Shown in pieces: positions 45,532 through 52,100 of a stretch of DNA of 64,000 nucleotides; position 1 is the stretch's first letter; the number at the start of each line of letters is the position of its first letter. The notes beneath the pieces are model-generated. The model saw only the letters and a list, made by a program, of their open reading frames with translations, did not search any database and was not told the origin of the DNA. The DNA comes from [Bacteroides] pectinophilus (GTDB lineage: Bacteria; Bacillota; Clostridia; Lachnospirales; Lachnospiraceae): positions 1,847,389 through 1,911,388 of the forward strand of contig CP102260.1 in the NCBI GenBank assembly GCA_025146925.1, written 5' to 3'. Made by a program: the position numbers and the translations under genes.

Positions 45532-46728
45532 TTAAAATGTCCCTGCAATCGTTTTTGCAAGTGCATCGATATCTTCATTCTGAGCCTGCTTTACGGATGA
45601 CTTTATTGTCACCTTCTGTTCAAGGATATTCAGGTTCTTACATTTGCCAAGAAGCTCCGCCGTCTGTTTTGCTGTCATTGCCGCCCATGTACCGTTCTCA
45701 ATCAGTGCAACCGTGCGATTCTGGAAATTATGTGCAGCAAGGTCATGCAGCAGATCTTCCATCTTCACGAATATTCCTCCATTGTAGGTTGCTGATGCAA
45801 ATACAACATGGCTGTATTCAAATGTTGCCGCAACTATCTCAGATGCCGGTACAACAGAAACATCAAACATCTTAGTTCTTATACCAAGCTCATTGAGCCT
45901 GCAGGCAAGAATCTCCGCCGCATTCTCTGTATTGCCGTATATTGAGCCATATGCAATGACAACACCCTGTTTCTCAGGCTCATACCTGCTCCATTTGTCA
46001 TATGCTGCAATATAATCAGCAAAATCCCTGCGCCATACAAATCCGTGAAGCGGACATATCATTGATATCTCAACTGCAGATGCTTTTTTAAGAAGTGCCT
46101 GCACCTGTGCTCCGTACTTGCCTACAATATTGGTGTAATATCTTCTTGCTTCATCAAAATAATCCCTGTAAAAATCTACCTCGTCAGCAAACAGTGCTCC
46201 GTTAATTGCTCCAAAGCAGCCGAATGCATCTGCCGAGAAAAGAATCCTGTCTGTCTTATCATATGTTACCATTACCTCAGGCCAGTGAACCATAGGTGCC
46301 ATTATAAATGTAAGATTATGCTTTCCTGTAGAAAGCTCGTCTCCTTCACTGACAAGCTTTAACTTTGAATCAATGTCAAAATTGAAGAACTGCTTAATCA
46401 TTCCTGCAACCTTGGCATTAGTCACTATAACAGTCTCCGGATGTCTTCTCGTAAGATCTTCAATCATTGCACAGTGATCCGGCTCCATGTGATTAACTAT
46501 CAGATAATCAAGTGGTCTGCCATTAAGCGTGTGTTCAATATTCTCAAAGAATATACCGCCAACTGCCTTATCAACGGTATCTAACAGAACCGTCTTTTCA
46601 TCAAGCAGCAGATATGAATTATAAGATACCCCGTAAGGAACCTTGTAAACGCCCTCAAATAGTGAAAGACGGCGGTCATTGCCACCTACCCACACAAGGT
46701 CTTCTGTAACATTTCTTGTACAATACAT
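45532..46728 (-). CDS. fprA: Flavodiiron protein (FprA/rubredoxin-oxygen oxidoreductase family: metallo-beta-lactamase + flavodoxin domains), copy 1
   Basis: HxExDH-like di-iron motif (NHMEPDHC), C-terminal flavodoxin domain. Start MYCTRN. Confidence 0.85.
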   Translation of the reverse strand: MYCTRNVTEDLVWVGGNDRRLSLFEGVYKVPYGVSYNSYLLLDEKTVLLDTVDKAVGGIFFENIEHTLNGRPLDYLIVNHMEPDHCAMIEDLTRRHPETVIVTNAKVAGMIKQFFNFDIDSKLKLVSEGDELSTGKHNLTFIMAPMVHWPEVMVTYDKTDRILFSADAFGCFGAINGALFADEVDFYRDYFDEARRYYTNIVGKYGAQVQALLKKASAVEISMICPLHGFVWRRDFADYIAAYDKWSRYEPEKQGVVIAYGSIYGNTENAAEILACRLNELGIRTKMFDVSVVPASEIVAATFEYSHVVFASATYNGGIFVKMEDLLHDLAAHNFQNRTVALIENGTWAAMTAKQTAELLGKCKNLNILEQKVTIKSSVKQAQNEDIDALAKTIAGTF

Positions 46729-46747
46729 AATCATTACCTCCTGAATG
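45600..46747. repeat. Direct repeat copy A (~1.15 kb, ~99% identical to 50925..52074)
   Basis: Aligned by eye; only scattered SNPs (e.g. aagaagctcc vs aagaatctcc). Identity ends at ...cctcctgaat / gagt vs aaat. Confidence 0.85.
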
Positions 46748-46866
46748 AGTTCCATGCTCACGCCGCTCCTCATTTCCGAATTTGTTTGCACTCATTATAT
46801 CATATAAAACATATTTTTTTATAAAAATAGTTAAATTAATATTTTTTTCTCTAAAAGTATACTATT

Positions 46867-47235
46867 TCAGAATCGTTCATACTTTACTGCTTTACCGTAA
46901 AATGTCTTGCTACACATATTACATGCCTTTGCCGCCTCTTCCAGCGTTATTTTTCCTTCTCTCCATGCCCTGTGCATCTGATTAAAATTATCCGGGATAG
47001 GTATTGACGGTCTCCCGAATTTTACACCTCTTGCTTTCGCTGCTGCAATACCTTCTGCCTGACGTTGTTTTATATTAATTCTTTCATTATCTGCATTTTT
47101 TCTTTTGTTATAATCCGCCACTGCTCATTAAGTTCTGTATAATTACGTCCGAGCCTGTCGATTGATTTTATATAGAGTACTGAATCTTCATCCAGCTTCT
47201 TAAGCATTTTCTTATATTCTGACCTCTCAAAAATA
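46867..47235 (-). pseudogene. Decayed serine recombinase (resolvase/invertase) gene: partial catalytic domain + frameshift/deletion + C-terminal HTH
   Basis: One frame reads ...[37 protein letters not shown] (resolvase catalytic-domain motif DRLGR). A different frame continues [22 protein letters not shown]...ITLEEAAKACNMCSKTFY (resolvase HTH). No N-terminal Ser region. Confidence 0.65.
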
Positions 47236-47269
47236 TTTACATATAATAACAGCTACAGTACAAAATTTC

Positions 47270-49499: not shown

Positions 49500-50811
49500 C
49501 TGCAAACCACCTCCAGTCGACTAACGAACCAGTTATCAGAAACATTGCCAGAATTGTTGCAATCTGTGCCCTGTATGTAAAGAAACAATGTAGATATGAA
49601 TGATTATGCAGTACCAGATATCTCGCATATGGTATAAGTCCAACAATCCCATATATAATAATACTATGCCAGCAAATATCATTACTATGGTAAACATATC
49701 CTATATAAATAATAAACAAAATAACTGCTGCAAACAGCCACACTCCTGCTTTGCCATATCCTGCCGGAAACAGACATTTTATATTATTAACAACTGCTCC
49801 TGTAATATACTGTACAGTACCAACGCCTATATCTCCGCCAATACGCTCGTCCACATGCTCCGTTACATACGGCAGCATACTGGTATGCATCACTGCAGAT
49901 GCTGTAATCCACTTGGCACACCATGTTCCGGCATATCCGGCTGTCCATGTCACAGCCGCTTTTACAGGTATTTTCACCGGACTGAAGCTTTCTTTATATC
50001 TTCCATTCATTCCAATGCAGATTACAATAAGCAGCGGCACTGACAATGTCACGGTCTCGGTAGTAAGAAAGTCAAAATAATTTGTTATCATCCCGCTGAG
50101 TAAGAATATGATTCCTATATTATACCATCTGCCTTTATCGCAGCTTCTGACTGCACACATAGCGGCCACCGGCATGATTATAAAAACCCATGTATATTCC
50201 AACGAATATGGTACAAACCATACCGCCGCTGCAATATATCCCACAGCCAGACCTACTGCTGCATAATATGCTTTTCTTCTTATGATCATTACAATAAGTG
50301 CCGCATTTAGAATTGCTACCATAACCGCATTAAAAAAATATATATTTTTAAGCTGCATAAACATCAGCATAGGTCTTACGATAACTGTTGAGCCATGCCA
50401 GTATCTCATGTATTGCTGGTTAGCCGCAGGATGCTTTGTAACTGCCTGATACAGGTTGTCATTCTCATTAAGATACGATGTATGGTAATACGAAGACATC
50501 ATAACAGATTCAAGCGGATTTTCCTCATCATACTGGTAAGCTATGCCTAAAAGTATCGAATCTGCATATCTGTCTATTCTGCTTCCTTCTGCCCCATCAA
50601 TAACAGTACCAAACAGTTCGCAATTTTTCAGATACTGCGCCGACTCCTGCATATTATCCTGTATTGCAGACACAGGAATCAGAGCTGTCAGCACAAGAAG
50701 CAGTATCATAACTCCTATGCCTGCAGCAAATACTCCTGTGTACATTATTACATTTTTAAAAATGCTTTTCCCCTTATGTCTGCAATCCGTATAGCCCTTA
50801 TTAAGTTTCAT
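49471..50811 (-). CDS. Polytopic membrane protein (>=9 TM, one large extracytoplasmic loop); candidate GT-C-type glycosyltransferase partner of the GtrB-like GT2
   Basis: Hydropathy; overlaps the GT2 gene start by ~29 nt (translational coupling). Confidence 0.4.
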   Translation of the reverse strand: MKLNKGYTDCRHKGKSIFKNVIMYTGVFAAGIGVMILLLVLTALIPVSAIQDNMQESAQYLKNCELFGTVIDGAEGSRIDRYADSILLGIAYQYDEENPLESVMMSSYYHTSYLNENDNLYQAVTKHPAANQQYMRYWHGSTVIVRPMLMFMQLKNIYFFNAVMVAILNAALIVMIIRRKAYYAAVGLAVGYIAAAVWFVPYSLEYTWVFIIMPVAAMCAVRSCDKGRWYNIGIIFLLSGMITNYFDFLTTETVTLSVPLLIVICIGMNGRYKESFSPVKIPVKAAVTWTAGYAGTWCAKWITASAVMHTSMLPYVTEHVDERIGGDIGVGTVQYITGAVVNNIKCLFPAGYGKAGVWLFAAVILFIIYIGYVYHSNDICWHSIIIYGIVGLIPYARYLVLHNHSYLHCFFTYRAQIATILAMFLITGSLVDWRWFADGAAKRTKS

Positions 50812-50853
50812 CTGTCCCCTTATCCACATATTAAATATTATCTATATCCCTGC

Positions 50854-52056
50854 TTACTCTGCCAATGTCTCTGCAATAGCCTTTGCAAGTTCCACTACAG
50901 CCTCATTCTGCTCCTGCTTGACAGCAGACTTTATTGTCACCTTCTGTTCAAGGATATTCAGGTTCTTACATTTGCCAAGAATCTCCGCCGTCTGTTTTGC
51001 TGTCATTGCCGCCCATGTACCGTTCTCAATCAGTGCAACCGTGCGGTTCTGGAAATTATGCGCAGCAAGGTCATGCAGCAGATCTTCCATCTTCACGAAT
51101 ATTCCTCCATTGTAGGTTGCTGATGCAAATACAACATGGCTGTATTCAAATGTTGCCGCAACTATCTCAGATGCCGGTACAACAGAAACATCAAACATCT
51201 TAGTTCTTATACCAAGCTCATTGAGCCTGCAGGCAAGAATCTCAGCCGCATTCTCTGTATTGCCGTATATTGATCCATATGCAATGACAACGCCCTGCTT
51301 CTCAGGCTCATACCTGCTCCATTTGTCATATGCTGCAATATAATCAGCAAAATCCCTGCGCCATACAAATCCGTGAAGCGGACATATCATTGATATCTCA
51401 ACTGCAGATGCTTTTTTAAGAAGTGCCTGCACCTGTGCTCCGTATTTGCCTACAATATTGGTGTAATATCTTCTTGCTTCATCAAAATAATCCCTGTAAA
51501 AATCTACCTCGTCAGCAAACAGTGCTCCGTTAATTGCTCCAAAGCAGCCGAATGCATCTGCCGAGAAAAGAATCCTGTCTGTCTTATCATATGTTACCAT
51601 TACCTCAGGCCAGTGAACCATAGGTGCCATTATAAATGTAAGATTATGCTTTCCTGTAGAAAGCTCGTCTCCTTCACTGACAAGCTTTAACTTTGAATCA
51701 ATGTCAAAATTGAAGAACTGCTTAATCATTCCTGCAACCTTGGCATTAGTCACTATAACAGTCTCCGGATGTCTTCTCGTAAGATCTTCAATCATTGCAC
51801 AGTGATCCGGCTCCATGTGATTAACTATCAGATAATCAAGTGGTCTGCCATTAAGCGTGTGTTCAATATTCTCAAAGAATATACCGCCAACTGCCTTATC
51901 AACGGTATCTAACAGGACCGTCTTTTCATCAAGCAGCAGATATGAATTATAAGATACCCCGTAAGGAACCTTGTAAACGCCCTCAAATAGTGAAAGACGG
52001 CGGTCATTGCCACCTACCCACACAAGGTCTTCTGTAACATTTCTTGTACAATACAT
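50854..52056 (-). CDS. fprA: Flavodiiron protein (FprA family), copy 2; only 38 nt downstream of cbiO/nikO
   Basis: Protein ~identical to copy 1 except C-terminal ~25 aa (…AVVELAKAIAETLAE vs …IDALAKTIAGTF). Confidence 0.85.
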   Translation of the reverse strand: MYCTRNVTEDLVWVGGNDRRLSLFEGVYKVPYGVSYNSYLLLDEKTVLLDTVDKAVGGIFFENIEHTLNGRPLDYLIVNHMEPDHCAMIEDLTRRHPETVIVTNAKVAGMIKQFFNFDIDSKLKLVSEGDELSTGKHNLTFIMAPMVHWPEVMVTYDKTDRILFSADAFGCFGAINGALFADEVDFYRDYFDEARRYYTNIVGKYGAQVQALLKKASAVEISMICPLHGFVWRRDFADYIAAYDKWSRYEPEKQGVVIAYGSIYGNTENAAEILACRLNELGIRTKMFDVSVVPASEIVAATFEYSHVVFASATYNGGIFVKMEDLLHDLAAHNFQNRTVALIENGTWAAMTAKQTAEILGKCKNLNILEQKVTIKSAVKQEQNEAVVELAKAIAETLAE

Positions 52057-52074
52057 AATCATTACCTCCTGAAT
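50925..52074. repeat. Direct repeat copy B (~1.15 kb)
   Basis: See copy A. Confidence 0.85.
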
Positions 52075-52100
52075 AAATAGAATAATAATACATCCCCTGT

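What the first reader, a model, noticed from the sequence alone, without database searches (positions are those of the whole stretch)
45532..52080. Two ~99% identical direct copies of fprA bracket a 4-kb cassette (recombinase remnant + Flg_new surface protein + GtrB-like GT2 + polytopic membrane protein): signature of Campbell-type integration
Seen in sequence: a ~1.15-kb stretch (45600-46747) recurs at 50925-52074 with only scattered SNPs, and both copies are full-length flavodiiron genes on the same strand. The copies diverge only in the last ~25 codons, and their upstream regions are completely different (38 nt to cbiO vs an AT-rich promoter region). Between them sit a frameshifted and internally deleted serine-recombinase gene, a signal-peptide/TM-anchored protein with three Listeria-Bacteroides repeats, a DPM1/GtrB-like GT2 and a translationally coupled polytopic membrane protein. 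Inference: a circular element carrying its own fprA homolog integrated by single-crossover homologous recombination into the chromosomal fprA. This would duplicate the gene and deliver a surface-protein plus two-component (polyprenol-P-sugar synthase + GT-C-like transferase) glycosylation module, possibly glycosylating the adjacent surface protein or teichoic acids. I do not know this gene combination as a described system.
Basis: partly seen in the sequence, partly recalled or inferred. Interest (0 to 1): 0.72.

Follow-up and report, generated by a model that had tools for sequence, protein, structure and literature searches.

The report
fprA-flanked strain-variable surface-glycosylation cassette
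In the gut bacterium [Bacteroides] pectinophilus, a 5.3-kb block encoding a wall-anchored surface protein and a probable two-enzyme sugar-attachment system sits between two near-identical copies of the oxygen-detoxifying gene fprA, is present in only some strains, and looks like the product of a single-crossover insertion that recombination between the two fprA copies can remove.

Summary
Window 45536-46746 and 50864-52074 are ungapped 1,211-nt direct repeats. The first 1,148 nt are 99.2% identical and the last 63 nt of the gene only 73%. Both copies are intact fprA genes on the minus strand.

The window comes from [Bacteroides] pectinophilus ATCC 43243, and two independent assemblies show the same arrangement. 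Conspecific metagenome scaffolds carry either this occupied allele or an empty one (cbiO-fprA-orf151). The empty allele is exactly what recombination between the repeats would leave. A sister species has a single fprA after cbiO, so the insert is derived.

Presence and absence are mixed across flank haplotypes, and one strain lineage carries a cassette 1.4-1.8% diverged. The insertion is therefore old and is lost or gained repeatedly through the repeats. The serine recombinase is dead in every strain examined.

The topology matches a Campbell cointegrate, but a circular donor is not shown. The repeat ends abruptly 12 nt before the ATG, which a plain homeologous crossover does not explain.

The parts
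52101..52808 (-). cbiO/ecf-type ABC ATPase. It is the last gene of the larB-larC-cbiM-cbiQ-cbiO cluster and forms the native upstream flank (U) of fprA.
   Evidence: Pfam ABC_tran. The same gene precedes the single fprA in empty-site strains and in the sister species.
50864..52074 (-). Repeat copy B. It comprises the RBS, the fprA core (R) and tail B. The fprA-B coding sequence is 50854-52062 (402 aa).
   Evidence: Alignment, translation, ODP and flavodoxin domains.
50864..50926 (-). Tail B, the last 63 nt of fprA-B. It is only 73% identical to tail A and is identical in every lineage compared. It is the homeologous joint of the insert.
   Evidence: Neither tail is clearly closer to the sister-species tails.
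49471..50811 (-). Polytopic membrane protein, probably a GT-C-fold glycosyltransferase. It is 446 aa from the ATG with an AAGGGG ribosome-binding site, or 452 aa from 50829.
48798..49499 (-). Soluble GT2 (233 aa) that overlaps the GT-C gene by 29 nt. It is probably a polyprenyl-phosphate sugar synthase.
   Evidence: Pfam Glycos_transf_2. Best NCBIfam matches are AglJ, PpgS and Dol-P-hexose transferase, all below the curated cut-offs. Best PDB sequence matches include DPMS 5mlz and ArnC. No TM segment is predicted. The same overlapping arrangement is seen in homologous loci.
47363..48778 (-). Surface protein (471 aa). It has a signal peptide, an N-terminal domain, three Flg_new (InlB B-repeat) units, an acidic stalk, and a C-terminus of SPQTAD plus a TM segment plus KRA, which looks like a sortase-type sorting signal.
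   Evidence: Pfam, sequence, hydropathy. Homologues downstream of GT-C homologues share the signal peptide, a stalk and the [S/P/V]P[Q/K]T[A/G] anchor.
47271..47303 (-). Intrinsic terminator after the Flg_new gene (AAAGGGAGCA...TGCTCCCTTTTTT).
   Evidence: Read directly from the sequence. The consensus scanner missed it, probably because of the loop length.
46867..47207 (-). Remnant of a small serine recombinase (resolvase/invertase type). It survives as two fragments in different frames (47070-47207 and 46867-47121). The N-terminal catalytic part and an internal segment are missing.
   Evidence: Three-frame translation. Intact relatives of about 180 aa with PF00239 are at most 71% identical. 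The nearest relative sits beside Mob_Pre and TnpV genes. Different strains carry additional deletions.
46747..46866 (-). AT-rich region P with a perfect extended -10 (TGATATAAT, 46794-46802). It now lies upstream of fprA-A. In a circular form of the unit it would lie upstream of fprA and the three cargo genes.
   Evidence: The general promoter scan found no more sites than expected by chance, so promoter activity is inferred.
45536..46746 (-). Repeat copy A. It comprises the RBS, the fprA core (R) and the native tail A. The fprA-A coding sequence is 45532-46734 (400 aa).
   Evidence: Tail A is the tail found at empty sites.
44479..45523 (-). Native downstream flank (D). It holds a small membrane ORF of 151 aa (45068-45523) and a YbaK/tRNA_edit-domain gene.
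   Evidence: Pfam. This flank follows the single fprA directly in empty-site strains.

Best explanation
The region is a strain-variable 5,328-bp accessory block (window 46747-52074) inserted in the chromosomal fprA of [Bacteroides] pectinophilus. Its topology is that of a single-crossover (Campbell-type) cointegrate: cbiO - [fprA core - tail B - GT-C - GT2 - Flg_new protein - dead serine recombinase - region P] - fprA core - tail A - orf151.

Shown: the ancestral state is one fprA directly after cbiO. The block is present in some conspecific strains and absent in others. The empty allele is exactly the product of recombination between the two 1.15-kb fprA cores. Presence and absence are uncoupled from the flanking haplotypes.

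Inferred: the block entered once, long ago, probably from a small resolvase-bearing plasmid-like or mobilizable element, by recombination in fprA. Since then it has been lost by RecA-type loop-out between the repeats, and possibly regained or amplified in the same way. No site-specific recombinase is involved today.

Inferred effect on expression: copy B stays behind the lar/cbi operon and now reads into the cargo genes. Copy A, with orf151 and the tRNA_edit gene, is driven by the imported region P.

Inferred cargo function: the three genes form an extracytoplasmic glycosylation module. The cytoplasmic GT2 loads a sugar onto undecaprenyl phosphate. After flipping, the GT-C-like membrane enzyme transfers the sugar outside the membrane. 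The most likely acceptor is the disordered stalk of the co-encoded wall-anchored Flg_new protein; a cell-wall polymer is the alternative.
For: Repeat anatomy:
- 1,211-nt ungapped repeats, 99.2% identical in the core and 73% in the tail.

Population and outgroup data:
- Empty alleles are L093, L094, L097, L099 and L100. Occupied alleles are L095, L096, L098, L101, L121, L122 and L129. All are 98.6-99.6% identical to the window.
- The sister species has larB-larC-cbiMQO followed by a single fprA, and the same downstream genes from GT2(427) and DUF815 through ruvAB.
- The flank-distance matrix pairs an empty with an occupied strain: L093/L098 differ at 9 sites and L100/L096 at 8, whereas occupied pairs differ at 23-46.
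- Both allele states occur on two distinct upstream haplotypes within 2 kb of the repeat.
- Cassette divergence reaches 1.4-1.8% in the L121-123 lineage, matching that lineage's overall divergence.
- Tail B is identical in the four occupied alleles compared across two lineages: window, L121, L122 and L129.
- The recombinase remnant has the same lesions in the aligned strains, with extra strain-specific deletions elsewhere. Its nearest intact relative lies beside Mob_Pre and TnpV genes.
- The junction P-core-tail B, expected for an excised circle or a tandem array, occurs on 20 contigs. One is a MEGAHIT contig with a 141-nt terminal overlap, which amounts to a closed 5,318-bp cycle.

Cargo:
- Its topology and the invariant acidic first-loop motif agree with that.
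- The GT2 is closest to AglJ, PpgS, DPMS and ArnC.
- GT-C/GT2 fusions occur in both orders.
- A GT2 directly follows the GT-C gene in 10 of 18 informative lineages, and a Flg_new protein lies within 3 kb downstream in 11 of 18.
- Homologous Flg_new proteins carry Thr/Pro-rich or acidic stalks and sortase-type anchors.
- The experimentally studied streptococcal analogue uses the same logic (PMC12041528).
Against: - No donor element was found. No other sampled organism carries tail B, and no homologue of the membrane protein outside B. pectinophilus exceeds about 55% identity.
- The unit has no replication or mobilization gene.
- Both repeat cores are host-type alleles. They differ only at sites that are polymorphic in the species.
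- The 5' end of the repeat is an abrupt breakpoint at -12 with no diverged remnant. A crossover with a roughly 80%-identical element gene does not predict this.
- Cassette G+C (40-43%) is the same as the genome's.
- The contigs with the circle or tandem junction may be assembler paths through the repeat. The two units in the tandem scaffolds are identical, or differ only in the first 87 nt.
- Foldseek against the PDB gave no significant match for the membrane protein. It matches no YfhO or PMT Pfam model.
- The stalk of this strain's Flg_new protein is acidic rather than Ser/Thr-rich.
- No flippase gene lies in the block.
Confidence: 0.6

Rival explanations
1. Duplication-insertion without a circular intermediate. 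A linear foreign fragment (tail B ... cargo ... P) was joined at one end by homologous or homeologous pairing near the 3' end of fprA. At the other end it was joined by illegitimate recombination to a point 12 nt upstream of fprA on a sister chromosome. This duplicated the host gene around the fragment.
For: It explains the asymmetry of the repeat. There is a homeologous 3' joint (73%-identical tail). The 5' breakpoint is abrupt, with no residual similarity. Both cores are host-type alleles.
Against: The mechanism leaves no direct trace. The illegitimate joint would have to fall by chance just upstream of the RBS, so that copy A kept an RBS and gained region P. The final structure cannot be told apart from a Campbell integrant.
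Confidence: 0.2
2. Two old tandem fprA paralogues with resident cargo between them were homogenised by gene conversion. The empty alleles are all secondary deletions, and no mobile element was ever involved.
For: The cassette is old and has diverged together with one lineage. Its G+C is native-like. Tail A of L121/L122 carries two B-type bases, which suggests small conversion patches. Deletion between the repeats certainly gives the empty allele.
Against: The sister species has a single fprA and no cargo at this site. Conversion needs homology on both sides of the tract, so it cannot produce the abrupt -12 boundary. A resolvase remnant lies inside the block. In other Lachnospiraceae the cargo module sits at unrelated chromosomal sites and never next to fprA.
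Confidence: 0.15
3. The duplication is an assembly artefact, that is, a mis-joined or expanded repeat.
For: The two assemblies of the type strain disagree at five positions inside copy A, four of them at sites that distinguish A from B. In short-read scaffolds the two cores are evidently collapsed to a single consensus.
Against: Two independent assemblies of the type strain have the same arrangement, and exact cassette proteins of the window are also on record on a 3.08-Mb contig. Unique junctions (cbiO-core, core-tail B-GT-C, P-core, core-tail A-orf151) recur in many independent metagenomes and with different assemblers.
Confidence: 0.03

Closest known systems
Campbell-type (single-crossover, insertion-duplication) integrants of circular DNA, and their loop-out and tandem amplification. 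This is textbook knowledge from F/Hfr formation through shared sequences and from integration vectors in Bacillus, Lactococcus and Streptococcus; it is not cited from a paper read here.
   Same: The insert is bounded by direct repeats of the homologous target. The empty allele is the exact recombination product. No site-specific recombinase is needed. Contigs carrying the junction expected for a circle or a tandem array exist.
   Different: This is a natural, population-wide polymorphism at a housekeeping gene in a gut anaerobe. No donor replicon is known. One boundary of the repeat is an abrupt breakpoint and the other a 73%-identical tail, so the duplicated core was already host-type when the structure formed.
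Streptococcal extracytoplasmic protein O-glycosylation: GtrB with PgtC2, and the S. mutans Pgf cluster (PgfS GT-A, PgfM1/PgfM2 GT-C, clustered with the wall-anchored adhesins Cnm, CnaB and CbpA) (PMC12041528).
   Same: A GT-A/GT2 enzyme of the polyprenyl-phosphate sugar synthase type is encoded with a polytopic GT-C-like enzyme and a wall-anchored surface protein that has a disordered stalk.
   Different: The membrane enzyme here matches no YfhO or any other Pfam model. The GT2 is a short soluble form (233 aa, no TM helices) that overlaps the GT-C gene, and in some relatives it is fused to the GT-C. The surface protein is a Flg_new/InlB-B-repeat protein. Its stalk in this strain is acidic rather than Ser/Thr-rich. 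No epimerase or second GT-C is present. No biochemistry exists.
Three-component wall and O-antigen glycosylation systems: GtrA/GtrB/GtrC in enterobacteria and CsbB/GtcA/YfhO in Bacillus and Listeria (own knowledge; YfhO is also discussed in PMC12041528).
   Same: The logic is the same in two steps. A lipid-linked monosaccharide is made in the cytoplasm and then transferred by a GT-C enzyme outside the membrane.
   Different: No GtrA/GtcA-type flippase gene lies in the block. The GT2 lacks the C-terminal TM helices of GtrB/CsbB. The recurrent neighbour is a surface protein, which points to a protein acceptor rather than a polymer.
ArnT (GT83), which is the best structural match to the model.
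   Different: Sequence identity is 7%. There is no PMT_2 Pfam match. The protein is much shorter (446 aa) and has no large C-terminal periplasmic domain.

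Membership tests
Campbell-type single-crossover cointegrate | The insert is flanked by direct repeats of the sequence shared between element and chromosome. 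| tested here: met
   1,211-nt ungapped direct repeats, with the core 99.2% identical.
Campbell-type single-crossover cointegrate | A single-copy, insert-free allele exists and equals the recombination product; it is ancestral. | tested here: met
   Five conspecific scaffolds carry the empty allele. The sister species has a single fprA after cbiO.
Campbell-type single-crossover cointegrate | A circular donor or excision product carries the P-core-tail B junction. | tested here: inconclusive
   Twenty contigs carry this junction, including one closed 5,318-bp cycle. Assembler paths through the repeat cannot be excluded. There was no hit in the plasmid or viral collections.
Campbell-type single-crossover cointegrate | The two repeat copies are reciprocal hybrids of an element gene and a host gene. 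| tested here: inconclusive
   Tail B is homeologous. Both cores are host-type, and the 5' boundary is abrupt at -12.
GT-C fold glycosyltransferase | Structural similarity to solved GT-C enzymes. | tested here: met
GT-C fold glycosyltransferase | N-terminus inside, TM1, then a long extracytoplasmic loop with conserved acidic residues. | tested here: met
   Residues 1-32 hold 7 K/R. TM1 is 33-51. Loop 52-154 holds 13 D/E, including the invariant D86 and D90 in IDRYADS. The topology rests on hydropathy and the positive-inside rule only.
YfhO / PMT_2 families (sequence membership) | A match to the Pfam models for these families. | tested here: not met
   No Pfam hit for the protein, or for any of 35 homologues at E up to 1. 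No NCBIfam hit. No PDB sequence hit, even with a profile. A UniRef name ('RgtA/B/C/D-like domain') is the only database hint.
Polyprenyl-phosphate sugar synthase (GtrB/DPM1/PpgS/AglJ-like GT2) | A GT-A/GT2 catalytic domain whose closest relatives are polyprenyl-phosphate glycosyltransferases. | tested here: met
   PF00535 at 1.4e-23. Top NCBIfam matches are AglJ, PpgS and Dol-P-hexose transferase, all below the equivalog cut-offs. Top PDB matches include DPMS 5mlz and ArnC.
Polyprenyl-phosphate sugar synthase (GtrB/DPM1/PpgS/AglJ-like GT2) | C-terminal transmembrane helices, as in GtrB/CsbB. | tested here: not met
   The protein is 233 aa. Its maximum 19-residue hydropathy is 1.21 and it has a basic C-terminus. 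It resembles the short soluble forms, and membrane contact is probably through the partner protein (fusions).
Pgf / GtrB-PgtC2-type protein O-glycosylation system | GT-A and GT-C genes clustered with a wall-anchored substrate protein that has a Ser/Thr-rich disordered region. | tested here: inconclusive
   The clustering is met and recurs in 11 of 18 lineages. Sortase-type signals are present. The stalk is Thr/Pro-rich in L131 but acidic and poor in Ser/Thr in this strain.
Pgf / GtrB-PgtC2-type protein O-glycosylation system | A glycan is demonstrably attached to the protein. | not testable with these tools
   This needs lectin blots or mass spectrometry of the Flg_new protein from occupied and empty strains.
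Small serine recombinase (resolvase/invertase, PF00239) | An intact catalytic domain with the N-terminal serine. | tested here: not met
   Only about 108 of about 184 residues survive, in two frames, and the N-terminus is absent. Different strains carry further deletions.
FprA family A-type flavoprotein (flavodiiron protein) | A metallo-beta-lactamase-like (ODP) domain followed by a flavodoxin domain. | tested here: met
   Both copies match PF19583 and PF00258. NCBI names the relatives 'FprA family A-type flavoprotein'.

The most novel reading that the evidence does not exclude
The 5.3-kb unit is a recombinase-free module that uses the host's own fprA as its attachment site and changes copy number. 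Under this reading it cycles by homologous recombination between absent, single-copy, tandemly amplified and excised-circle states in natural populations. That would vary the dose of a glycosylated surface adhesin, and of fprA, from cell to cell. Its GT-C/GT2 pair would define a previously unrecognised family of protein O-glycosylation enzymes, widespread in Lachnospiraceae, that act on sortase-anchored Flg_new proteins.
Probability: 0.15. Interest if true: 0.75.

Novelty: new variant of a known kind. Interest (0 to 1): 0.5.

Why it matters
First, this is a clean natural case of accessory genes being held, lost and perhaps amplified purely by homologous recombination between duplicated copies of a housekeeping gene. 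It occurs in a common human gut anaerobe, and both alleles are frequent. The exact cassette GT2 protein is on roughly half as many contigs as the exact CbiO protein. Such repeats also break short-read assemblies, so accessory content of this kind is easy to miss.

Second, the cargo points to an uncharacterised and large protein family with no Pfam model: 4,314 clusters at 50% identity. Structure, gene order and natural fusions link this family to a polyprenyl-phosphate sugar synthase and to wall-anchored Flg_new proteins. That gives a directly testable lead for surface-protein glycosylation in Lachnospiraceae. Naturally occurring occupied and empty strains are available as controls.

Tried and rejected
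- **Genome-contig scan with FprA.** The best hits were only 67% identical and the source species itself was missing. None of the 80 loci had the cargo, the flanks or a second fprA near fprA. The scan said nothing about close relatives.
- **Exact look-up of FprA-A.** All contigs began at the ATG. I first read this as a graph branch. I then judged it largely an ascertainment effect, because the 400-aa product is called only when the contig starts there.
- **Strain-specific SNPs shared by copies A and B within metagenome scaffolds.** This looked like concerted evolution. I rejected it as evidence because short-read assemblers collapse the core. Differences survive only within about 140 nt of the repeat ends, and the tandem units are identical apart from differences within the first 87 nt of one scaffold.
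- **Early estimate that the cassette is 2-3 times less diverse than the flanks.** It was overturned by the L121-123 lineage.
- **Database searches with no result.** Plasmid collection by DNA: only a 70-nt recombinase match. Viral contigs: no match. Pfam, NCBIfam and PDB sequence searches for the membrane protein: nothing. Foldseek against the PDB: nothing significant. The afdb50 library was unavailable.
- **Comparison of tails A and B with orthologues.** Both are about equally distant from the sister-species tails, so this gave no polarity and no donor.
- **Region P against the sister-species fprA upstream regions.** No similarity.
- **Promoter and terminator scanner.** Counts were at chance level, and it missed the visible terminator.
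- **Literature searches.** I searched for the assembly accession, for pectinophilus with flavodiiron, for natural Campbell integrants, and for Flg_new with glycosylation. Nothing specific was found.

Full report

Yes. A local alignment of the two regions gives window 45536-46746 against 50864-52074. It spans 1,211 nt with no gaps and 26 mismatches. The mismatches are very unevenly spread. There are 9 in the 1,148 nt at 45599-46746 (99.2% identity) and 17 in the 63 nt at 45536-45598 (73%).

Both genes are on the minus strand, so the diverged stretch is the 3' end of the gene. fprA-A (45532-46734, 400 aa) and fprA-B (50854-52062, 402 aa) are intact. Both have the ODP/metallo-beta-lactamase and flavodoxin domains of A-type flavoproteins.

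Similarity starts 12 nt before the ATG (ATTCAGGAGGTA). Upstream of that point the two contexts share nothing. Copy B lies 38 nt after the cbiO stop codon. Copy A lies behind an AT-rich stretch with a perfect extended -10, TGATATAAT at 46794-46802.

In the direction of transcription, the genes between the copies are:
- a polytopic membrane protein (49471-50811, or 50829 from an upstream ATG);
- a GT2 that overlaps it by 29 nt (48798-49499);
- a Flg_new protein with three repeats (47363-48778);
- a terminator (47271-47303);
- a serine-recombinase remnant split over two frames, with no N-terminus (46867-47207).

**2. Source and reliability**

Exact-protein look-ups identify the organism as [Bacteroides] pectinophilus ATCC 43243, a member of the Lachnospiraceae. 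The window differs from the 2008 draft GCA_000155855.1 by 5 substitutions and 4 indel gaps (5 inserted or deleted bases) over 21 kb. It is therefore an independent assembly, and exact cassette proteins of the window are also on record on a 3,078,488-bp contig. Both assemblies show the same tandem arrangement.

Four of the five substitutions fall at sites that distinguish copy A from copy B (45916-45970). At these sites the draft has B-type bases in copy A. This is either read mixing in the draft or conversion between culture stocks. It does not affect the structure.

**3. Related genomes: empty sites, polarity and age**

A look-up of the neighbouring CbiO protein returned long conspecific metagenome scaffolds.
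- Five carry cbiO - fprA (tail A) - orf151 - tRNA_edit with no insert: L093, L094, L097, L099, L100.
- Four carry the same arrangement as the window: L095, L096, L098, L101.
- More occupied alleles came from later look-ups: L121, L122, L129.

The empty allele is exactly what recombination between the two cores would leave.

A sister species (FprA 81% identical) has larB-larC-cbiMQO followed by a single fprA with its own promoter-like spacer. Downstream it has the same genes from GT2(427) and DUF815 through ruvAB. One fprA after cbiO is therefore ancestral, and the block is an insertion.

The insertion is not recent.
- In the 5.6-kb upstream flank, the closest pairs are one empty and one occupied strain: L093/L098 differ at 9 sites and L100/L096 at 8. 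Occupied pairs differ at 23-46 sites.
- Within 2 kb of the repeat, both states occur on two clearly different haplotypes.
- The cassette of the L121-123 lineage differs from the type strain's at 50-64 of 3,564 sites (1.4-1.8%), as much as that lineage's flanks do.
- Tail B is identical in the four occupied alleles compared across two lineages: window, L121, L122 and L129.

The simplest reading is a single old insertion, followed by repeated loss through the repeats and possibly regain in the same way. Exact-sequence counts suggest the cassette is in roughly half of the populations. The exact GT2 is on about 850 contigs and the exact CbiO on about 1,500. This is a crude proxy.

**4. What the repeats say about how the structure arose**

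Three details complicate the simple story.

(a) Both cores are ordinary B. pectinophilus alleles. The nine differences in the type strain are all at sites that vary among strains.

(b) Tail B is a true homologue of tail A but is only 73% identical. In the sister species the tail diverges about 1.6 times faster than the core (64% against 77% identity). By that ratio, the gene that supplied tail B was probably about 83% identical overall. This figure is an inference.

(c) The 5' end of the repeat is an abrupt breakpoint at -12, with no diverged remnant.

A crossover between the host gene and a gene about 83% identical would leave one copy largely element-derived and diverged. Later conversion could not erase that divergence right up to a boundary that has no homology beyond it.

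Two possibilities remain. The incoming DNA may already have carried a host-type core joined to foreign ends. Alternatively, the structure formed by one homologous joint near the 3' end and one illegitimate joint at -12, which is duplication-insertion. These cannot be separated with the data available. For that reason I call the Campbell interpretation partly supported.

Small conversion events between the tails do seem to occur. Tail A of L121/L122 has two B-type bases, and the cluster representative P0122 has the matching tail A protein variant.

**5. Traces of a mobile past and of present dynamics**

The recombinase remnant corresponds to about 108 of about 184 residues of a small resolvase/invertase. 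Intact relatives are at most 71% identical. The nearest one lies next to Mob_Pre relaxase and TnpV genes on a 4-kb contig, as in small mobilizable elements.

The remnant has the same gross lesions in the five occupied alleles aligned. It is decaying further in a strain-specific way: a 10-bp deletion in L101, L111 and L113, and a deletion of about 80 bp in L121-123. It can play no part today. The block contains no rep or mob gene. Nothing similar is in the plasmid or viral collections. Its G+C matches the genome.

A protein variant that joins the P-derived N-terminal extension (MELIQEV...) to tail B exists (P0124, P0128). It can only be encoded by a P-core-tail B junction, which is the junction of an excised circle or a tandem array. 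It is found on 20 contigs from different samples and assemblers.
- One is a MEGAHIT k141 contig of 5,459 nt with a 141-nt terminal overlap. That amounts to a closed cycle of 5,318 bp, the unit with the 10-bp deletion.
- Six are nearly complete turns of the cycle.
- Three scaffolds show two tandem units.

The tandem units are identical, or differ only in the first 87 nt. Among more than a thousand samples, some wrong paths through a 1.2-kb repeat are expected. I therefore treat this as a lead, not a demonstration. For the same reason I discount the apparent sharing of strain-specific SNPs between copies A and B in scaffolds.

**6. The cargo**

*Membrane protein.* It has no Pfam, NCBIfam or PDB sequence match, even with a 35-sequence profile. 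It nevertheless belongs to a large family: 666 hits in the first search, and 4,314 clusters at 50% identity in the exhaustive one.

Hydropathy and charge place the N-terminus inside. They predict a 103-residue acidic first loop that holds the invariant motif IDRYADS. This is the usual position of the catalytic acidic residues in GT-C enzymes.

*GT2.* It is a short soluble form with no TM segment. Its best matches are polyprenyl-phosphate sugar transferases: AglJ, PpgS, Dol-P-hexose transferase, DPMS 5mlz and ArnC. All fall below the curated family cut-offs.

*Coupling of the two genes.*
- The overlapping arrangement, GT-C gene first and GT2 second, recurs in other Lachnospiraceae at unrelated chromosomal sites.
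- A GT2 directly follows the GT-C gene in 10 of 18 informative lineages.
- Single polypeptides fusing the two exist in both orders (P0511, P0560, P0579).

*Flg_new protein.* A Flg_new protein lies within 3 kb downstream in 11 of 18 lineages. These proteins share a conserved signal peptide, an N-terminal domain, 1-3 Flg_new repeats, a disordered stalk and a C-terminus of the form [S/P/V]P[Q/K]T[A/G][D/E] plus a TM segment plus a basic tail. From my own knowledge of clostridial sortase substrates, I read that C-terminus as a sortase sorting signal. The stalk is a Thr/Pro repeat in L131. In this strain it is acidic and poor in Ser/Thr.

**7. Mechanism proposed for the cargo, and comparison with known systems**

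The following is inferred, not shown. The GT2 makes a lipid-linked monosaccharide on the cytoplasmic face of the membrane. The GT-C-like enzyme then transfers the sugar outside the membrane. The most likely acceptor is the stalk of the neighbouring wall-anchored protein. Wall polymers are the alternative.

The closest experimentally studied systems are the streptococcal GtrB/PgtC2 pair and the S. mutans Pgf cluster. There, a GT-A and YfhO-family GT-C enzymes glycosylate Ser/Thr-rich disordered regions of membrane and wall-anchored proteins, including adhesins encoded in the same cluster (PMC12041528).

The present module works like these on paper. It is not a member of the YfhO family by any sequence test. 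It also differs in the short or fused GT2, the type of surface protein, and the lack of a flippase or epimerase gene.

**8. Consequences of the insertion for fprA (inferred)**

In empty strains fprA has no recognisable promoter of its own and follows cbiO by 38 nt. In occupied strains copy B keeps that position and now reads towards the cargo genes. A TTGGCA-17-GATAAT match overlaps the end of tail B. Copy A, with orf151 and the tRNA_edit gene, sits behind the imported extended -10 element.

**9. Verdict**

The block is a true insertion into fprA with Campbell topology. Empty sites exist and the ancestral state is single-copy. The membrane protein is GT-C-like.

The insertion is, however, an old polymorphism maintained by homologous recombination. 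No donor circle is known. The repeat boundaries call for a more complicated origin than a simple crossover with a foreign homologue.

Novelty is moderate. The integration is a new natural example of a known kind of event. The cargo is a new variant, not yet catalogued, of GT-A/GT-C extracytoplasmic glycosylation. Interest: 0.5.

Noticed in passing
L128:4179-6508 and the last 47 nt of L110; breakpoint corresponds to window 46794: In some B. pectinophilus metagenome contigs the cassette runs up to the last base of the extended -10 of region P and then continues into unrelated DNA. That DNA holds a terminator hairpin, a convergent tyrosine-integrase gene (PF00589, 338 aa) and a 230-aa ORF. A second, integrase-bearing element seems to be inserted between region P and fprA-A in those strains.
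   Followed up: partly
window 45916, 45946, 45964, 45970, 46241: The two assemblies of the type strain disagree inside fprA-A. At four sites that distinguish copy A from copy B, the 2008 draft has the B-type base. This is either read mixing in the draft or gene conversion between culture stocks.
   Followed up: partly
window 42849-44432 (+ strand, 527-aa ORF without Pfam match): This gene is variable among strains. It is deleted in L095 (1.65 kb missing) and replaced by a GT1-like 200-aa ORF plus a 321-aa ORF in L121/L122. In the 2008 draft it is split by a homopolymer difference at 44035. The sister species has a barnase-barstar pair in place of orf151, the tRNA_edit gene and this ORF. The stretch downstream of fprA is therefore a hot spot for accessory genes.
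   Followed up: partly
window 52101-57800 (- strand): Upstream of fprA lies a nickel-related cluster. It contains a hemerythrin-domain protein, larB-like (AIRC) and larC-like (Ni_insertion) genes and cbiM(PDGLE)-cbiQ-cbiO. Cobalamin-salvage genes (cobS, cobU, cobD, cbiA-like, cobO) precede it. In empty strains fprA appears to be the last gene of this operon.
   Followed up: no
P0511, P0560, P0579 (proteins): These are natural single-chain fusions of the GT-C-like membrane protein with a GT2 domain. They occur in both orders: GT2 at the C-terminus in two and at the N-terminus in one.
   Followed up: yes
L121/L122 tail A (locus positions about 9614-9676); protein P0122: In one lineage tail A carries two bases, and the residues AKAIAET, that match tail B. 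This mosaic suggests a short conversion patch between the otherwise diverged tails.
   Followed up: partly
window 45068-45523 and 44479-45120 (- strand): orf151 is a small hydrophobic protein with no family match. It overlaps the annotated start of the tRNA_edit (YbaK-like) gene in another frame. A homopolymer difference at 45074 made the 2008 draft call one fused 347-aa product.
   Followed up: no
L150:4986-7211 and about 27 similar loci (L145-L170, L175, L181, L192): In one abundant human-gut lineage the GT-C homologue (52% identical) is followed directly by a 303-aa Flg_new protein, with no GT2 in between. A DUF218 gene lies upstream. The GT-C/Flg_new link therefore persists without an adjacent GT2.
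   Followed up: partly
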